Assembly (NCBI GenBank): GCA_964016885.1
Contig: OZ024740.1
Location: 267,530,001 to 267,594,000 of the forward strand
Length of the DNA stretch: 64,000 nucleotides
Source of the DNA: Eledone cirrhosa
Lineage: Eukaryota
Reading direction: 5' to 3'
The translations under genes were made by a program, and so were the position numbers. Positions within the stretch are counted from its first letter, which is position 1; each line of letters begins with the position of its first letter. Of the stretch, positions 18,366-55,005 are shown piece after piece. The notes beneath the pieces are model-generated. The model did no database searches, was not told the DNA's origin, and saw only the letters and a program-made list of their open reading frames with translations.

Positions 18366-18761
18366 TTTAAAGAAAAATGATACTTTATGTAGAAAACTTT
18401 AATATAAAAGTTTCTTCATGCATCATGATAAAATACACTTGTTATAGCAACAGATCATATGTAAGCTATATGCACGTCCCCAGCATATCTGAGAGGTCAG
18501 AATCCCTGCTTCAATATACAGTCTGTGAAGACACATGAAACTCATGTTATCAGGGAAAATGGACATGAAATGAGAATGATGATGATGTGTATTGTTCACA
18601 TATATAATTCTGTTATATATTTATTATGCAAATTCATTTTGTCACTATAAATCTTGTTACTTGGTTCATTATTCATGTGAGATCTTTTGTAATATTACCT
18701 CAGTTGCAAACTCCAGAGAAAGTCACACACACATACACACACACACATATATATATAGAAT

Positions 18762-18916
18762 TAGAATTGTTTCATTTGTAAGAAATCATCTTGGTGATTT
18801 CTTACAAATGAAAAAGTTCTAGTCCTGGAGAAATCTATTCTCTAAAATAAGGATGCTAACGTATTGAGTAGTTTTTTAAACTGTGGTCACCTCCAAATAT
18901 ATATAAGGAATCCACC

Positions 18917-18966: not shown

Positions 18967-20469
18967 ATGTGTGAGATCCTTGGTAGAGTTAGATATATTT
19001 GGAAAAAAAGGAAAAGAATGACATCACTTGTTTCTATATCAATTTAATTTTATAATTTTACAATTTTATAGTTTTATAATTTTGCTATGTAGATCTAGTA
19101 AAATTACAAAATGATATAGTTGTAAAATTATAAAATTAAATTGTTATTGAATACCAGCTACAAGTAAAGTCATTCTTTTCCTTTTTTCATATATATATAT
19201 ATTTATATATATATATATATACGAGAGAGAGGGAGAGAGAAGGAAAGTGAGACTATCGGCTATAATAGTATCATCTTTTAGTTCAACTGTCAGTTGACAA
19301 GTTAAAGATCACTTGTAATAACAATTGTTAATAAGGTCCAGTATTCTTGTTTCTATTTCTCTCTTTCTCTCATATTTCTCCATTCTCAATGGTCTGCAAT
19401 GAACTATTTCTATGGTTCAACAGCACAGGATATCAAGTTGTGGTATTAAGATATTGTAAATTATTTCCCACAAGAGGATATAATTATTAAAAGATGGGAA
19501 CAGAATAAAGAATGTGGAGTGGGGAATGTAAAATAAATGGAAACAAAATTATAACTAAGAAATTAAAAGAAATATAAAAAATAAAAAAAAGGAGGTACAT
19601 AAATAATGTATGATTTTGAATAAATATTCTTTCATATTTCCATCATACTTCAACTAAATACAAATATGTCACACACATGTGTATACATAAAAATGTATAC
19701 ACAAACAGATGCACATTGACACTGAAACACATACACAGACAAATACATTTATACATAAGCAAATCCCAATGAGAGAAATACTATTGAATCTCTCGATGAT
19801 AAAAATATATCGTTGGAATCATTTCCATCTTAAAAGGCTATTTAATTCTTAAAGGATATCATCACCATTCTCAAAGATTTAATTGAGGAACCAGAAATTA
19901 CTATTGATCAGAATATTAAACATCGTAAATGCAAGAAATCAATATGTAATTTTCATAACTAAAACTTCTTTCTTGCATTTTTAAATATCCCAAAACAAAA
20001 CAAAAAGACAATTAAAAATAGCAAAACAAATACTCATTGAAATACAAGTTCTACACAGCAGTATCATGTATATAGTATTGCTAATACTGTATATATGTCG
20101 TTACAGCTCACACCTACGTAGGTTTAGCTGATCTACTATGAGATGCAAGATTTCTCGGGTGTTTTAATGATTGGGAGCCCCAGGTCATATCATGAAAAGC
20201 ATCCTGAAATGAAATGCCTTACCCAAAAACATGAAGCACCATCCAATCCAGTAATCGAGCCCATGACCTTATGATCATGCATCCAACACCTTAACATGAC
20301 CATGGCTAAAGAAAGCTTTCTCAAATAACTACTCCTCACAAAGGAGATGATAAAGGAAAAAGCAAGTGAAGGGATGCTGTACTTGAGAGGACCTGTCTAA
20401 AGAATGTAAAACCAATGATAATGATGATTATTAGAAAATGATTATTCAGTTCACTATTGCTATACAAAG

Positions 20470-20635
20470 TTTCTTTCCATTGCTGATACTATCTACTGGT
20501 TGCAACTCCTGGCAGAAAGAGTAAAATGAAATAAATTGTTTTGCTGAAGGACATAACACATCGCCCTATCCCGGAATGAAACTCATAACCTCATGATTGC
20601 AAATCCATTTCTCTAACCACTAGGCTACATGCCTT
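20470..20635 (-). mobile_element. CORE-type SINE (partial)
   Basis: Reverse-complement match to 2248/18133 copies. Confidence 0.65.
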
Positions 20636-21610
20636 TGACCCTTCCAATTAATATAAAGTTTACTTTGTGAAGTTTTCTCCCATTTGCACACATTGACATT
20701 TATCACCTGTAAACTTTTTTATCACTTAGCTAGAACAAGAGCAGTAACTTTTCAAGATTTTTAGAACTTCCAAAACTGGTAGGTGAGAGGAAAATATCTT
20801 CAAACCAGAAACTTGGCTTGTGTGTTTGCTATGTTTGTAATAGAGGGGAGTCTGCTAAAGGCACTCAAGGACCAGGGGTGGGTTTAGAATTTTTAATCAT
20901 CAAGTTACTACTATATAAACCTTGATATGAGAAGAAAAGAAAGCAACTGCATAACTTGGCACAATTCAACATTACATCTAAGAGATGAATGGCATTTTGA
21001 AACAAAAATCAACCTGGTAACTCTTGTCATGAACAGCACAGCACATCTATGATAGCCTTTTCTTATCCTAGGGTGTAGGATGTGGAACATTGCATATATC
21101 TTAAAATATCAAGGAGCTGTTTGAGGGAGGAATTTTTAGCACTAGAAATTAGCAGGTCTTTGTAGAATTAAAAATAGAAGCTCCCTTATTGGCTAACTCA
21201 CTTAATCTATTACGGAGCCTGAAAGTAATAAGACATTATTTAAAAAAAGAAACAAGGAATGGCTCCCTAATTCCTTCTCACATAGCTCAATGATCAGGCA
21301 ATAAGGCTACCTATAAAAAGCAGGTAACTTAAAGTATCAGTTTCTAAAAGTACCTATCACTTCCAAACATATATAGAGTCACTCACTCACTCACATTCCT
21401 TAATCCCATCAACCAAACCTAACAACAAACACAAGGTAAGAAGTAGTAAGTAGAGTGGGTGGATAGAAAGATCAAGTGAGGTGCTCTTATAGCATTAGCA
21501 TTGTATTTAGATATGAAAACTGTTTAGCCTGGAACTGAAGCTGCTGACAGTTCACAGATGCCAAATCTGGCCTAATGCCATTTCAAACAGGAGCAACATA
21601 CATGAGCATA

Positions 21611-21683
<73 letters not shown>

Positions 21684-21759
21684 AGTTATTCCGGGTTCAA
21701 TCGGGGCTAACCACAGTAAGTAAGGTACTCAATAGATAGCAGAGTATAAATGTTTTAAT

Positions 21760-21824
21760 ATAGAAAAGCTTCTACAGGACTAGAACTGTTTCATTCGTGA
21801 GAAATCATCAGGAAGCTTTTCTAT
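21760..21824 (-). ncRNA. Type I hammerhead ribozyme motif
   Basis: Minus strand: AUAGAAAAGCUUC-CUGAUGA-U UUC UCAC GAA U-GAAA-CAG UUCUAGUC CUG-UA-GAAGCUUUUCUAU. Perfect 13-bp helix I, intact core, GUA cleavage triplet at 21775-21773. Confidence 0.8.
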
Positions 21825-22120
21825 GGCATTTGTTTATCGTAAATTCGTGAGCTGATTTTCCGATACTCGATTATTCTATTATATATATATATATATATAT
21901 ATACAGAGAGAGAGAGATTTGAAAGAGTTGAAGTCAGTGTTGAGGCATATGTACAAACTTTATTTGCCTATTACAATTGTTTCAATATGATGGGGGCCCT
22001 GACTCTTTTTCGACATCTCAGATATGTGCAAAGAAACATCTAAAGTGTTGACAGATATCTGGAGATCTGTTTATATACTTATTGGTAGGTTTCAGGGGGA
22101 TACACATAAACGTGTGTGTA

Positions 22121-22814: not shown

Positions 22815-24702
22815 ATCATCATCATCATCATCATCATCAGGTTTAGCGTCCGTGTTCCACGCTTGCATGGGTTTGGACGGGGGTTTTCCCACTTGAGGCA
22901 AGAGTGGTTGTCTTGCTCGCATAGGACTGTCTGGCGGGTTTTCTACAGTTGGATGCCCTTCCTAACACCAACCACATTTACAGTGTGGGGCTGGGAGGTT
23001 TTTACCGTGTTGCCTACACGGCCACATTACAGCGTGGACTGTCTGGCGGGTTTTCTACAGCTGGATGCCCTTCCTAACACCAACCACATTTACAGTGTGG
23101 GGCTGGGAGGTTTTTACCGTGTTGCCTACACGGCCACATTTACAGCGTGGACTGTGTGTTTTTTGTCGTGACACCTACACGATCTCATTTGTTTCGGCCT
23201 GGATGTTGTGGGACCAACATAACTTTACATTGAAAGGGGCGGTGTGGGTGGGGTGGAGGGTGGTGGGACGGGGGTGTGTTTTGATAGAGATGCCTACTGA
23301 CTGTAGTAGGTTTTTACTTTGTATTTAGGTAAGGCGGGTCTTCTCTATTACTGAGTACCGCCAAAGGTCTCGGTCCAGTGACATTGTCTTGGAGAGGTGT
23401 AAGCGTGTGAGGTCGGAATTTATCAGCTCGTCCCATGTTTTTCTGGGTCTGCCTACTCCGTGGCTACCGTCTATCTTTATTGCCCTGCACTTTGTTATAC
23501 AGCTGTCGTCTTTCATGCGCATCACGTGACCGTACCAACGTAGCCTTCTCTCGAGTAAACAACATCTGATCCCTCTTATTTCTAATTTTTTCCTTAGTTC
23601 GTTTATGCTTTGCCGTTCACGTATATTACTATTGCACATCCAGCGGAGCATGCAAGCTTCGTTCCTCTCTAGTCTGCGTATATCCTCTGCACACAATGCC
23701 CAGGTCTCACTGCCATGCAGCATTGCTGTTCGTATGCAGGCATCGTATAACCTGCCTTTCATTTTTAGGGAGAACCCTCTAGCGGCTAATAGTGGTATAA
23801 GCTCTCTGAACTTTTTCCATCCAGTTCTGACTCTAGCTACTGTACTTTCAGAGCACCCTCCCCCACTGCTGATTTTGTCACCCAGATAACGGAAGCTGTC
23901 CACTATTTCTATAGAACCCTCTGCGCAGTTGAAGGAGCTAGTATTTTGTGGGCACTTGCTGCTACTTATTGCACCAGAGCACCGGCCACATGTAAAATCT
24001 ATGTTCTTAGTTAGCTTACCTGTGATCCCACTACATCTTTTATGCACCCATACTTTGCATTTGGGACATAAAATGGAGTTTCTACCTACGCCTTTCCTAC
24101 ACACTGAGCATGGCCATTTCCCCGATGGGACCGCCGCCTTATTTTCTTTCCTACAAACTAGAACTTTAGTCTTAGCCAGGTTAATTTTAAGGCCTTTTGA
24201 TTCTAGGCCGTGCTTCCACGTTTGGAATTTCTTCTCTAGTTCGGTCATTGATTCAGCTATGAGCGTTAGATCATCTGCGTATAGGAGTTCCCATGGGCAG
24301 CCGGTCTTGAACTCCTCTGTTATAGCCTGAAGGGCAATAATAAATAGTAGGGGGCTAAGAACAGAGCCCTGATGGACACCAACTTTTACGCTAAACTCTT
24401 CACTATATTCGTTGTTAATTCTAACCTTACTGACTGTTTCTTTATACATGGCTTGTATAGCTCTCACAAGCCATTCGTCAACACCTAGTTTTCTAAGAGA
24501 CCACCAGATAATGGAACGGGGGACTCTGTCGAAGGCTTTCTCCAAGTCGACGAAAGCTAAGTATAGGGGTTTACTTTTAGCTAGGTACTTCTCCTGTAGT
24601 TGTCGTACAATGAAAAGAGCGTCTGTGGTACTTTTGCCTGACACAAACCCGAACTGCATTTCATCTAGATCAATTCTCTCTCTGATTAGTTGCGCTATTA
24701 CT
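22815..24702 (-). mobile_element. RTE-clade LINE, 5'-truncated (~1.9 kb), young
   Basis: Uninterrupted RT frame; 3' UTR with a duplicated ~113-bp unit; (GAT)n tail; highly similar to 53003-55005. Confidence 0.95.
23325..24659 (-). CDS. RTE reverse transcriptase (partial ORF, no endonuclease) with inserted PHD-type finger
   Basis: Motifs [58 protein letters not shown]. The ORF start is an internal Met of a truncated element. Confidence 0.92.
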
Positions 24703-44512: not shown

Positions 44513-47500
44513 TGGATCCACAATACCATATATTGTTACTTTAGGGTGTATGATTCTTTCTTCGATTTACACTAAGTTAATTATCTGTAAACTTATAATG
44601 AAATAAGTGCTAACTTGAAGTGGCACACATGATCATTTTAATTAATTAAGACTATATTAACTGGGAGGTAAACAAATATTGGTGAACAATTACTATTACC
44701 AAATTAATATTACCAATTAATATTATCAAACATTGGTGAACAATGCTTAATAATACCAAACAGATGCAAGGTGCCATAATCAAAAACAAACAATACTACT
44801 AGTATTTTATAAAATGGATTGATGTACCAAAGTCTCAATTAATTAAAACTAAAATCAGGCAATGTGGTGAAGAGGAGGAGGAGAACAATTTTATAAAAGG
44901 TAAATAAGGAATGCTATTAAAAGGCCCAGATTAGAACTACTAGGAATTAGATGATAGATGTAAAGCTAGAGTTTAAAAAAAAGATAATAAAAACAAACAA
45001 TTGAATACTAATTTTTTTGTCTACTAGAAATCAATCACTCTAAGCAAGAGCCACAGGCTATTACTTTAGAATGGGTTAGATGACAGGGAGGGGTGGTATT
45101 AATTCCACAAAATCTCTCTATATATATGCAAATTTTAGAAACCTATAAAAGATGATGATAAAATAACTGATAAAAAATGTTAATGATATACAATGAGATG
45201 ATAATAAAAAGACAAAAAATAGATGACGATAAAGGAGCTAATAAATTAAAATAAAGTAAGAGGGTAATAACAGAACCAATAAAAAGATTAAAATAAAGGA
45301 AACAAACATAAAAAAGAATAGATATTAATATAGTGTTTATGCTGTAAATGGGATTCCAATACAAGTTAAACCAGTTTTTTATGTTTGATGGTACTTTTTG
45401 GATTTTTGGTAAATGCATCTAACATAATTCTCTAATCTGGGATGCCACATGCTGTGATATGTTCTCTGCCTCCTCACCTGTAATGTGGAGGAGAGAGAGA
45501 GATAGCTGTATACTGGGACTTGACCAAATGATTCCTTTTCATGCCAGTCACCATTGAGGTTGCATATATCCTCAGTTCCTCAATTGCCGTTTTCTTCTGC
45601 AAAATCAAGAGGAGTGTATCCTGCCTGAGACATCCTACCACATGATATAGAGTCACTGATGCAACAGGTGCTATTGGCTGTTCTCCATGATATTGCCTTC
45701 ACCCTTTTGTCTATGGGACACAGCTGAAACATACCACCTAGACTAGGGTGTAGAGACTGCTGCTTCTTTCCTCCTCTCCCTTACTATCACTATTTAGAAT
45801 AAAATAGTATAGTTAATACAAGGGATTTTGAGATATGTAAAAAAGCATCCAATGCAGTAGAAATATATAAAGAGGGAAAAACCCCTGAAATATCATGTTG
45901 AAAAGAGGGTTGTAGCCCTGGAATATGTTGAAATATACTGGGTAAAACATTACTTTGTTTTGCTTTATTTATCACTCTTTGCCTTTTATATATTTATACT
46001 GCATTGTACCAGCTTTCTGAAACTTATCAGTCTTTATCACTATTTAATTTTTCCTTTCTATTGTATTATTTTATTTATTTTCATTTCCATGAATAAAATT
46101 ACACATCTTTCTAGATTTAAAAAAAAAAAAAAGAGGGGGTTTAGCTGAAAACAGCAAATATTCCCCCCAGAATCAGATTAGTTGTATTTAGAGACCCATC
46201 TCTTTATATATTATATCTCTCAACAGGAACTTGGGGTTAGTTTCATTTTCTAAAAGTGCAACACAAAAATTATTGGACAGAGTATTAGATATATTGCTTT
46301 CTTATTCTTGAGTTGCTGAAACATTCATAGGCTGACTATGAAGGAGTGATGCTAGAGCTGTGAAATCTTGCATGCATTAATTTCATGCATTAATTATTTC
46401 ATTACTAAGATAGTAACCTGATGTAAAGTTCTTATATTAAATTATGTTGGAAGATTTTTATTTAAATTGAAAACCTTTAAAATGGGTGGTTTTATTTCAT
46501 AGAACCAGAGCCAGTTTTGGCAGGGTTGTTAAAATAAAGGTTAAAGAAAATGGACAATATTAATAATGTAGTCTTTATAAAGAAAATATAGGATAGCCAT
46601 GGCCGAAAATACTTTAATCATAGGTTTGTGCAATATCAGGGCTAAACAACAAAAATAATCAAAGATACCAATGAGTTAGTATCAAAGCTCACTTTTCAGT
46701 ATAAGGTATATTTGTAGATAATTCCAAAATAGAAAAATGGTTCTGCCAAATGCATGCAACACAGAACAGTGCATATATTCAAAGAGAGATTGAGTAAATA
46801 ATTAATGAAACTGGATATTGACTAATTATAATAAATATTAAGTAATAATGATAATGATTAATGATGTTGGAAGACATAATTATATGTTAGATACATACAT
46901 ATGTATGTACATACATACTACATACAATCATACACTAACAACATTCTGTAGTACAAGAAAACAGTCAGAAATTGAACTATCCCTTTGATTCTTTGAGTAT
47001 AACAAAATATATTTTTAAACTCGTAGACTTAATTAAATTCAGTGCACAGGATTGATTCAAATTTTTTCTGCAGCTTCATATGTACACATTTCAATGATTT
47101 ATTAAGAAATAGAAATATGAATGAAAATAGAATAATTGACCATGCCTAAGGACAGAGAACAGTGTTGCATTGTTAGATCAATTTTTCAACACTTTAGTTT
47201 CTTCCATCACCATGTACAGCACTCTTCTTCTAAGTGGCTGAACACAAAACCAATTATAAATGGTGGTAAACATGAAACTATAGTATTGTTCAATATGCCA
47301 AATTATTTTTACCACAGGAACAAAGAATTGGGATCTTACAGCCTGAGGAAGTAAATATGAGGATAAAACAATACAACAAATTTATCTTAGGTAAATAGAG
47401 TTAAGTGTCTTGTCCAAATATATATTGTAATGATGTAAAGCTTGAGGTGAGATATGAACTTATAATCGACCATATTACTCTATTTGGTGTGTCTAAGGAA

Positions 47501-52968: not shown

Positions 52969-53002
52969 GTATGTATATGTATATATATATATATATGTGT
53001 GT

Positions 53003-55005
53003 TCCGAAGGACTGGCGTAGCAGCATCATCGTTAACTGTTACAAGGGTAAAGGAGACGCCCTAGATAGGAGTAACTATAGAGGCATTAAATTAATCGACC
53101 AGGTCATGAAGGTCACGGAAAAAGTAATAGCGCAACTAATCAGAGAGAGAATTGATCTAGATGAAATGCAGTTCGGGTTTGTGTCAGGAAAAAGTACCAC
53201 AGATGCTCTTTTCATTGTACGACAACTACAGGAGAAGTACCTAGCTAAAAGTAAACCCCTATACTTAGCTTTTGTCGACTTGGAGAAAGCCTTCGACAGA
53301 GTCCCCCGTTCTATTATCTGGTGGGCTCTTAGAAAACTAGGTGTTGACGAATGGCTTGTGAGAGCCATACAAGCCATGTATAAAGAAACAGTCAGCAAGG
53401 TTAGAATTAACAACGAATATAGTGAAGAGTTTAGCGTAAAAGTTGGTGTCCATCAGGGCTCTGTTCTAATAGTAGCCCCTACTATTTATTATTGCCCTTC
53501 AGGCTATAACAGAGGAGTTCAAGACCGGCTGCCCATGGGAACTCCTATACGCAGATGATCTAACGCTCATAGCTGAATCAATGGCCGAGCTAGAGAAGAA
53601 ATTCCAAACATGGAAGCACGGCCTAGAATCAAAAGGCCTTAAAATTAACCTGGCTAAGACTAAAGTTCTAGTTTGTAGGAAAGAAAATAAGGCGCCGGTC
53701 CCCTCTGGGAAATGGCCATGCTCAGTGTGTAGGAAAGGCGTAGGTAGAAACTCCATTTTATGAAATGCAAAGTATGGGTGCATAAAAGATGTAGTGGGAT
53801 CACAGGTAAGCTAACTAAGAACACAGATTTTACATGTGGCCGGTGCTCTGGTGCAATAAGTAGCAGCAAGTGCCCACAAAATACTAACTCTTTCAATTGC
53901 GCAGAGGGTTCTATAGAAATAGTGGACAGCTTCCGTTACCTGGGTGACAAAATCAGCAGTGGGGGAGGGTGCTCTGAAAGTACAGTAGCTAGAGTCAGAA
54001 CTGGATGGAAAAAGTTCAGAGAGCTTATACCACTATTAGCCGCTAAAGGGTTCTCCCTAAACATGAAAGGCAGGCTGTATGATGCCTGCATACGAACAGC
54101 AATGTTGCATGGCAGTGAGACCTGGGCATTGTGTGCAGAGGATATACGCAGACTAGAGAGGAACGAAGCTTGCATGCTCCGCTGGATGTGTAATAGTAAT
54201 ATACGTGAACGGCAAAGCATAAACGAACTAAGGAAAAAATTAGAAATAAGAGGGATCAGATGTTGTTTACTCGAGAGAAGGCTACGTTGGTATGGTCACG
54301 TGATGCGCATGAAAGACGGCAGCTGTATAACAAAGTGCAGGGCAATAAAGATAGATGGTAGCCACGGAGTAGGCAGACCCAGGAAAACCTGGGACGAGCT
54401 GATAAATTCCGACCTCACACACTTACACCTCTCCAAGACAATGTCACTGGACCGAGACCTTTGGCGGTACTCAGTAACAGAGAAGACCCGCCTTACCTAA
54501 ATACAAAGTAAAACCTACTAGTCAGTAGGCATCTCTAACAAAATACACCCCCGTCCCACCCCATCCACACCGCCCCTTTCAAGGCAAAGTTATGTTGGTG
54601 CCACAAAATCCAGGCCGAAACAAACCCGAAACAAACGAGATCGTGTAGGTGTCACGACAAAAAAACACACAGTCCACGCTGTAATGTGACCGTGTAGGCA
54701 ACACGGTAAAAACCTCCCAGTCCCACGCTGTAAATGTGGTTGGTGATAGGAAGGGCATCCAGCTGTAGAAAACACGCCAGACAGTCCACGCTGTAATGTG
54801 GCCGTGTAGGCGACACGGTAAAAACCTCCCAGCCCCACACTGTAAATGTGGTTGGTGTTAGGAAGGGCATCCAGCTGTAGAAAACCCGCCAGACAGTCCT
54901 ATGCAAGCAAGACAACCACTCTTGCCTCAAGTGGGAAACCCCCGTCCAAACCCATGCAAGCGTGGAACAGGGACGTTAAACGATGATGATGATGATGATG
55001 ATGAT
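53003..55005 (+). mobile_element. RTE-clade LINE, 5'-truncated (~2 kb), two frameshifts
   Basis: PKDWRSSIIVNCYKGKGD...NYRGIKL...QFGF...YADD...; net +4 at about 53468 and -4 at about 53762 versus the 22815 copy; duplicated UTR unit; (GAT)n tail. Confidence 0.95.

What the first reader, a model, noticed from the sequence alone, without database searches (positions are those of the whole stretch)
21760..21824. Best-preserved hammerhead: 13-bp helix I, intact core, GUA site
Seen: all conserved core nucleotides are present, helix I is perfect, and helix III (ACAG/CUGU) has a loop containing CUAG. It lies in a ~200-bp insert (21683-21880) bounded by (TA)n. It is on the same strand as the candidate host exon. 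Inference: if that gene spans this position, an active ribozyme would cut its intron co-transcriptionally.
Basis: partly seen in the sequence, partly recalled or inferred. Interest (0 to 1): 0.75.

Follow-up and report, generated by a model that had tools for sequence, protein, structure and literature searches.

The report
Penelope retroelement stub with hammerhead ribozyme
The self-cutting RNA motif is really there, but it lies in a 135-base leftover end of a very abundant jumping gene of a known kind, and its unusually long stem likely arose by accident of insertion, so it is probably not a switch for a host gene.

Summary
The type-I hammerhead at 21824→21760 (minus strand) is real: intact core, GUA site, 13-bp helix I, 4-bp helix III. 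Helix II is weak (3 bp, with U·U where G10.1-C11.1 is usual). It is not special. The 44-nt core occurs exactly 830 times in the genome and a downstream 29-mer 12,522 times. Longer copies join it to an RT/GIY-YIG ORF carrying Hydra-clade Penelope-like element (PLE) motifs. The family's own helix I is 6 bp. The extra 7 bp exist at this locus alone as an exact match and are likely the remnant of the PLE's usual 5' inverted arm. The '200-bp insert' is a chimera: a 135-bp PLE stub plus 55 bp of a second repeat. No host exon was supported; the best splice-signal candidate lies in an old repeat, and no RNA data were available. Side result: most sampled arms end at the start of helix I, about 30 nt after a TATA-like box, rather than at the cut site, which suggests copying of uncleaved RNA. 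The scan noted Hydra-type stubs before on other DNA. Ordinary; new family member.

The parts
21683..21817 (-). 135-bp 5'-truncated terminal-repeat (pLTR) stub of a Hydra-type Penelope-like element: hammerhead plus downstream tail
   Evidence: 94-98% identical genomic copies; 94.1% to the pLTR in front of an ORF in L074, 90.2% to that in L108, 98.4% over 62 nt to the one behind an ORF in L118; fixed 3' end against (TA)n
21812..21817 (-). Native 5' strand of helix I (6 nt); likely first nucleotides of the element's transcript
   Evidence: Native flank in 30 of 30 loci L031-L060, which were found with that flank; 306 exact genome matches; TATA-like box 30-31 nt upstream in the three long copies checked; 23 of 50 inverted arms end at -6..-4. 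Start site is inferred.
21818..21824 (-). 7-nt extension of helix I; reverse complement of 21760-21766, likely remnant of the 5' inverted arm
   Evidence: Exact 29-mer occurs once in the genome; 5 of 7 other loci with a similar joint are inverted arms joined at the same 6 nt and skipping the core
21805..21811 (-). Hammerhead core C3-A9 (CUGAUGA)
   Evidence: Sequence
21793..21804 (-). Helix II: U·U at 10.1/11.1, 3 bp, 4-nt loop
   Evidence: stem letters kept in 46 of 52 scorable copies while the loop takes 13 forms; same U...U closing in several published Hydra-clade hammerheads
21774..21792 (-). G12-A14, helix III (4 bp) and 8-nt loop with palindromic CUAG
   Evidence: loop unchanged in 44 of 52 scorable copies
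21772..21773 (-). Predicted cleavage site (GUA|G)
   Evidence: Position in the hammerhead fold; cleavage untested
21760..21772 (-). 3' strand of helix I (first 6 nt are the family's native partner)
21828..21882 (-). 55-bp fragment of a second, unrelated (TA)n-associated repeat with a 600-bp tandem unit
   Evidence: 40 of 40 scored matches, most 100% identical over 55 nt; unit shown; no Rfam hit
21614..21682 (.). (TA)n/(TG)n tract on the element's 3' side (likely insertion target)
21879..21917 (.). (TA)n then (GA)n tract on the other side
18754..18900 (+). Older, degenerate inverted pair of the same family with a broken core
   Evidence: About 84% identity in both orientations; sequence

Best explanation
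This is the hammerhead motif in a 135-base stub of the terminal repeat of an abundant Penelope-like retroelement family with Hydra-clade protein motifs, and its 13-bp helix I likely arose by accident when the element's inverted arm was joined to the forward arm. Shown: the family, its ORF, its tandem and inverted layouts, the 6-bp native helix I. Inferred mechanism: the element is transcribed from a TATA-like promoter whose start falls on the first base of helix I; its RT/GIY-YIG protein cuts (TA)n and primes cDNA from both DNA ends at two internal RNA sites about 55-60 and 128 nt past C3; both cDNAs usually run across the uncut ribozyme to the RNA 5' end and are joined head to head. Here the inverted arm stops at the 3' strand of helix I, which equals the 5' strand read backwards, so joining or a later deletion at that 6-nt match gave a perfect hairpin. 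A junction with a second repeat then left only 7 extra bases. In the active element the ribozyme likely trims precursor or tandem RNA, weakly or with protein help. In this promoterless stub it is likely a passenger.
For: Copy number: 830 exact 44-nt cores; 12,522 exact tail 29-mers. Link to an ORF: ATG 136 nt after the cut site in L108; ORF then 3' UTR then hammerhead in L118, and ORF-repeat-ORF or repeat-ORF-repeat in L116 and L120. Protein motifs RWR, DKT, YRDDG, CxCx5C, IVY..YIG, CxxC before E, CxH after N match the Hydra definition (PMC8557442 section 11) and the published Hydra proteins by eye; weak Pfam GIY-YIG hit, E 7e-4, below its cut-off. Inverted arm in 50 of 90 position-ordered copies. 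The extended helix is locus-specific: 1 exact match against 306 with the native flank and 111 perfect palindromes centred on AGCT. 5 of 7 other similar joints are core-skipping inversions, with helix I of 14, 6, 5, 6 and 22 bp; L004 is another, with a broken core. The fold is kept across subfamilies: one C-G to A-U swap in helix I in 12 of 65 distinct rows; variable loop II on a constant stem. 5' ends: 34 of 90 forward arms and 35 of 50 inverted arms end at -9..+2 from C3, only 5 of 90 and 1 of 50 near the cut. This agrees with uncleaved RNA being the main template for an anole PLE (PMC11167929).
Against: No tree with published Hydra proteins was built; clade assignment rests on motifs and by-eye comparison. 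The covariation is one inherited event counted many times, and 489 of 500 shuffles reach the same number of covarying pairs. Arm borders come from BLAST against five reference copies and are approximate; diverged subfamilies inflate the 14 'downstream' calls, and two pairs of loci look duplicated. The start site is inferred only, and D. virilis Penelope has a TATA-less internal promoter (PMC2377424 abstract). The pile-up of ends could instead reflect joining at the AGCT palindrome or RT pausing at helix I. All ten long loci examined have split or frameshifted ORFs, so current activity is not shown.
Confidence: 0.88

Rival explanations
1. An accidental but active intronic cutter: the inversion made a ribozyme that folds better than its parent, a host transcript crosses it on the minus strand, and it is cut co-transcriptionally with some effect on that gene.
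For: Helix I pairing probability is 0.93-1.0 in four window contexts, against 0.00-0.04 in three of four native contexts and about 0.55 in the fourth. Core and GUA are intact. Domesticated intronic type-I hammerheads exist in amniotes (PMC6155905 passages).
Against: No supported host exon: 288 non-repeat reading frames gave only two sub-threshold Pfam hits; the best splice-signal candidate is in an old repeat. Helix II is weak. Metazoan PLE hammerheads tested so far cleave poorly or need protein. The copy is young (98.5% to a sibling), so no selection can be read from it.
Confidence: 0.06
2. A solo monomer of a non-LTR retrozyme of about 200 nt that spreads through circular RNA.
For: Size, type-I hammerhead and palindromic loop III fit retrozymes; animal retrozymes are proposed to derive from PLE repeats (bioRxiv 10.64898/2026.07.22.740005, part 1 read).
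Against: The 200 bp is a chimera of two families. No head-to-tail array of a hammerhead monomer at this locus or among the hits. The same repeat flanks an RT/EN ORF.
Confidence: 0.03
3. The unique junction (13-bp helix plus second repeat) is an assembly or read-chimera artefact in a repeat-rich TA tract.
For: Two high-copy repeats abut within 200 bp between microsatellites.
Against: The same kind of joint occurs at other loci with different flanks, so it needs no artefact. The window lies on a 443-Mb contig.
Confidence: 0.03

Closest known systems
Hydra-clade Penelope-like elements and their hammerheads (Craig et al. 2021, PMC8557442; passages, section 11 and supplement Files S1/S2 and alignment excerpts read)
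   Same: Single ORF with C-terminal GIY-YIG; DKT and CxCx5C motifs; (TA)n insertion; 5' truncation, inverted copy and tail; type-I hammerhead. The U...U closing of helix II is in Penelope-1 to -6, -8, -9, -14, -16 and -18_HM. Helix III ACAG/CUGU with GUA is in Penelope-1_NV, Penelope-1_SK and Hydra-1_aMil.
   Different: RWR instead of RWK; 8-nt loop III where the listed Hydra hammerheads have 1-3 nt; tail about 70 nt rather than 30-40. The hammerhead differs from that of Hydra-1_Obim, so this is another family. The window copy has no ORF.
PLE minimal hammerheads (Cervera and de la Pena 2014, PMC4209133; parts 1-2 of 4 read)
   Same: Type-I motif in terminal repeats, mostly as solo or opposite-strand pairs from truncated elements; palindromic loop III.
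   Different: Here helix III is a full 4 bp, helix II is short, and G10.1-C11.1, which that paper calls highly conserved, is absent.
Poseidon element of Anolis (Frangieh et al. 2024, PMC11167929; parts 1-2 of 4 read)
   Same: Two fixed 3' ends defining a tail; AT-rich targets; unprocessed RNA as main template fits the arm ends seen here.
   Different: Different clade; there the ORF starts inside the ribozyme, here 136 nt after the cut site. No biochemistry here.
Domesticated intronic type-I hammerheads of amniotes, e.g. RECK (PMC6155905, passages read)
   Same: Single type-I motif that could cut a host pre-mRNA.
   Different: Those are conserved across species in known introns; this one is a young copy of a high-copy repeat with no supported host gene.

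Membership tests
Type-I hammerhead ribozyme | Conserved core CUGANGA / GAAA / UH around three helices, helix I open | tested here: met
Type-I hammerhead ribozyme | NUH cleavage triplet | tested here: met
   GUA; the two letters before the cut are TA in 50 of 52 scorable copies
Type-I hammerhead ribozyme | G10.1-C11.1 pair of canonical motifs | tested here: not met
   U·U here and family-wide; same in several published Hydra-clade motifs, so it is a variant, not the canonical form
Type-I hammerhead ribozyme | Match to an Rfam hammerhead model | tested here: not met
   No hammerhead family among 4 hits at E<=10 for 21690-21875; none among the 150 of 252 rows shown for the window
Type-I hammerhead ribozyme | Helix I - loop II tertiary contact | not testable with these tools
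   Loop II varies freely (13 forms in 52 copies), which argues against a sequence-specific contact
Type-I hammerhead ribozyme | Mg2+-dependent self-cleavage | not testable with these tools
   No experiment; no RNA reads available
Hydra-clade PLE (family level) | Single ORF, RT followed by C-terminal GIY-YIG endonuclease | tested here: met
   L108, L109, L110, L113; PF01541 E 7e-4, below cut-off; 437 relatives at E<=1e-10, best 36-52% identical. All ten long loci examined are split or frameshifted.
Hydra-clade PLE (family level) | RWK motif and DKT in place of DKG | tested here: met
   DKT exact; RWR as a conservative variant
Hydra-clade PLE (family level) | CxCx5C linker; CxxC and CxH beside the conserved E and N | tested here: met
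   CxH read from the L108 DNA, CxxC at that place in L118
Hydra-clade PLE (family level) | Absence of the CCHH motif in the endonuclease | tested here: inconclusive
   Not seen by eye in L113; no alignment with CCHH-bearing PLEs made
Hydra-clade PLE (family level) | Insertion in (TA)n, pLTR tandems, inverted 5'-truncated copy, tail | tested here: met
   (inverted arm in 50 of 90)
Hydra-clade PLE (family level) | Length under about 3 kb | tested here: inconclusive
   ORF about 2.1 kb plus a microsatellite-rich 3' UTR; no intact full unit measured
Hydra-clade PLE (family level) | Placement in the Hydra clade on an RT tree | not tested
   Published proteins were only read in the supplement
Non-LTR retrozyme | Head-to-tail tandem monomers each with a type-I hammerhead, no ORF | tested here: not met
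   Single stub; repeat flanks an ORF elsewhere
Domesticated intronic hammerhead | Lies in an intron of a host gene, sense strand | tested here: inconclusive
   No supported exon in the window; exons outside the window not examined
Domesticated intronic hammerhead | Conserved at the orthologous site across species | not testable with these tools
   G000 has no relatives in the collection

The most novel reading that the evidence does not exclude
Because helix I is its own inverted repeat, Penelope inversion junctions repeatedly build new hammerheads with long perfect stems (13, 14 and 22 bp seen) that escape the parent's competing folds. This copy would be such a constitutively active monomer inside a host transcript, a mechanistic route from retroelement ribozyme to domesticated intronic ribozyme caught at its first step.
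Probability: 0.04. Interest if true: 0.55.

Novelty: new member of a known kind. Interest (0 to 1): 0.15.

Why it matters
As found, little: PLE hammerheads, solo stubs, inversions and (TA)n targeting are published, and an octopus Hydra element is already listed (PMC8557442). Two modest points are usable. First, with over 12,000 exact tail matches and young copies, the family allows a direct test of what PLE hammerheads do in vivo: arm ends pile up at the start of helix I, not at the cut site, which points to uncleaved, probably capped RNA as template. Second, it is a caution for ribozyme scans: a long perfect helix I in a PLE stub is a likely inversion scar, not a sign of selection.

Tried and rejected
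Rfam: no hammerhead hit; none for the second repeat. Expression: no RNA holder listed for window 19300-21590; this is no evidence either way. Junction check: contigs of three runs of one sample, laid at 99% likeness, show no cover at 21819-21826 and no bridging piece; at 90% the cover there comes from other copies. The tool states that such a hole proves nothing, so the junction is simply unverified in reads. Host exon: Pfam scans of 138 minus and 150 plus reading frames of 38 aa or more outside known repeats gave two sub-threshold hits; shorter exons would be missed. The candidate 45478-45596 had no PDB or protein match (the Atlas gave no answer) and is part of an old repeat. Idea that copies are truncated at the cut site as a footprint of cleavage: not supported, 5 of 90 forward and 1 of 50 inverted arms. 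The window's inverted remnant ends at the cut site, but this cannot be told from joining at the 6-nt match. A family search with PF26215 was not possible. Earlier-findings look-ups near the window and by sequence were empty. Literature: 'hammerhead ribozyme' plus 'octopus' gave 5 papers, 4 listed, only the Craig paper relevant; I found no kinetic data for U10.1·U11.1 hammerheads (listing; PMC2837043 passages). Subscription journals and Repbase were not searchable, so the family may already be catalogued. Supplements of the bioRxiv preprint were not seen and include few invertebrates by its Methods.

Full report
Observation. On the minus strand, 21824-21760 reads as a type-I hammerhead: a perfect 13-bp helix I, CUGAUGA, a short helix II, GAAA, a 4-bp helix III with an 8-nt loop containing CUAG, and GUA, with the predicted cut between 21773 and 21772. 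A descriptor needing helix I >=6 bp and helix III >=3 bp finds it once in the window and 0.015 times on average in 200 locally resampled windows. Rfam has no hammerhead hit there. Predicted pairing is about 0.06 for helix II, 0.5 for helix III and 0.93-1.0 for helix I.

It is a repeat. The window lies on a 3.0-Gb assembly. Its size, TA-rich repeats and SINE content suggest an octopus-like cephalopod; that is my recall, not a tool result. The stretch 21683-21817 has copies at 94-98% identity (2,509 first-look candidates, 40 scored). The 44-nt core occurs exactly 830 times and a 29-mer of the tail 12,522 times. The 55 bp at 21828-21882 belong to another repeat with a 600-bp tandem unit, so the '200-bp insert' is a chimera.

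The family is a Penelope-like element with Hydra-clade motifs. In L042 and most of the 29 further loci the repeat continues into an ORF; the ATG is 136 nt after the cut site in L108. L118 shows ORF, 3' UTR, hammerhead; L116 and L120 show tandem layouts. The protein has RWR, DKT, YRDDG, a CxCx5C linker, IVY..YIG, CxxC before the conserved E and CxH after the N. These match the Hydra definition (PMC8557442 section 11) and, by eye, the published Hydra proteins (supplement excerpts). Pfam GIY-YIG hits weakly (E 7e-4, under cut-off), and 437 relatives score E<=1e-10. All ten long loci examined are split or frameshifted, and no tree was built. The paper's hammerhead table shows the same U...U closing of helix II in many Hydra magnipapillata families and ACAG/CUGU with GUA in Nematostella, Saccoglossus and Acropora families. 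Hydra-1_Obim has a different ribozyme, so this is another family.

The 13-bp helix is locus-specific. Long copies have a 6-bp helix I (30 of 30 loci selected by the native flank; 306 exact genome matches). The 29-mer with the 7-nt extension occurs once. PLEs often carry an inverted 5'-truncated copy (PMC8557442). Here 50 of 90 position-ordered copies do (90 of the 100 listed places, of 12,522; two already held and the last eight were not fetched), and 111 loci are perfect palindromes centred on the AGCT of helix I. Eight loci have four A's before the native strand. Of the seven besides this one, five are inverted arms joined at the 6-nt strand and skipping the core, with helix I of 14, 6, 5, 6 and 22 bp. 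L004 is another, with a broken core. Because the two strands of helix I are inverted repeats, such a join or a later deletion gives a long perfect stem automatically. This is inference, but it needs no selection.

The fold is kept in the lineage. Across 65 distinct copies 95% of cells pair, and one C-G pair of helix I is A-U in 12. That is probably one event, and the count of covarying pairs does not exceed shuffles (489 of 500). So the ribozyme likely matters to the element, and an intact core in a young copy is the norm.

How it likely works. A TATA-like box lies 30-31 nt upstream of the first base of helix I in the three long copies checked. Forward arms end at -9..+2 from C3 in 34 of 90 copies, read further than -25 in 16, and end near the cut in 5. 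Inverted arms end at -9..+2 in 35 of 50, 23 of them at -6..-4, and near the cut in 1. The outer ends fall at about +54 to +61 for inverted arms and at +128 for this forward arm. I infer a transcript starting at helix I, two internal RT start sites, priming from both ends of a cut in (TA)n, and copying across the uncut ribozyme. This agrees with the anole Poseidon element, where RT starts internally, unprocessed RNA is the main template and the hammerhead needs the element's protein (PMC11167929, parts 1-2). Against it: borders are approximate, joining at the AGCT palindrome or RT pausing could give the same peak, and D. virilis Penelope has a TATA-less internal promoter (PMC2377424 abstract). 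Metazoan PLE hammerheads tested earlier cleaved weakly and not as monomers (PMC4209133).

The host-gene idea. In its favour, the window copy is predicted to fold helix I in every context tried, whereas a native copy is predicted to misfold in three of four. But the stub lacks the promoter region, and no host gene is supported. 288 reading frames gave two sub-threshold Pfam hits. The one stretch with strong splice signals (minus 45478-45596) has no protein match and lies in an old repeat. The recognisable coding sequence in the window is RT- and transposase-like (read by eye). A long intron with exons outside the window remains possible. Domesticated intronic hammerheads are known in amniotes (PMC6155905 passages), but they are conserved across species, which could not be tested here.

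Earlier notes of the scan describe Hydra-type stubs with hammerheads in this and other genomes; I had reached the Hydra assignment before reading them. Verdict: real motif, ordinary origin, new family member of a known kind. Interest 0.15.

Noticed in passing
window 18754-18900: Older degenerate inverted pair of the same PLE family, about 84% identical, core broken.
   Followed up: partly
window 31721-31771 (-): A second, weaker type-I hammerhead-like match of different sequence (6-bp helix I), resembling other Hydra-type motifs in layout; probably another PLE family.
   Followed up: no
window 21828-21882; L064, L069, L071: Second (TA)n-associated repeat with a 600-bp tandem unit and very young copies; no Rfam hit; identity unknown.
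   Followed up: partly
window 21726-21746 (-): 5-bp stem with an 11-nt loop just past the point where inverted arms begin; earlier scan notes propose such a hairpin as an RT start signal. Not tested here.
   Followed up: no
window 45478-45596 (-): 119-nt exon-like stretch with good splice signals inside an old dispersed repeat; possible exonisation, no support.
   Followed up: partly
window 23328-24700 (-), 33400-34470 (-), 52980-54500 (+): Truncated copies of a LINE-like reverse-transcriptase element, the first with a long open frame (read by eye).
   Followed up: no
window 25713-26894 (+): Mariner-like transposase split by one stop (read by eye).
   Followed up: no
window 36092-42264 and 3820-9790: 6.2-kb (AT)n-rich tract and a 6-kb array of 37- and 42-bp minisatellites with extreme GC skew.
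   Followed up: no
L140: Mirror image of the window copy: the inverted arm carries the core and the forward arm starts at the cut site, joined through helix I.
   Followed up: partly
L108 6548-7001 (reverse strand) and L110 5117-6640: ORF fragments that look like other Penelope-like clades next to the Hydra-type copies (read by eye).
   Followed up: no
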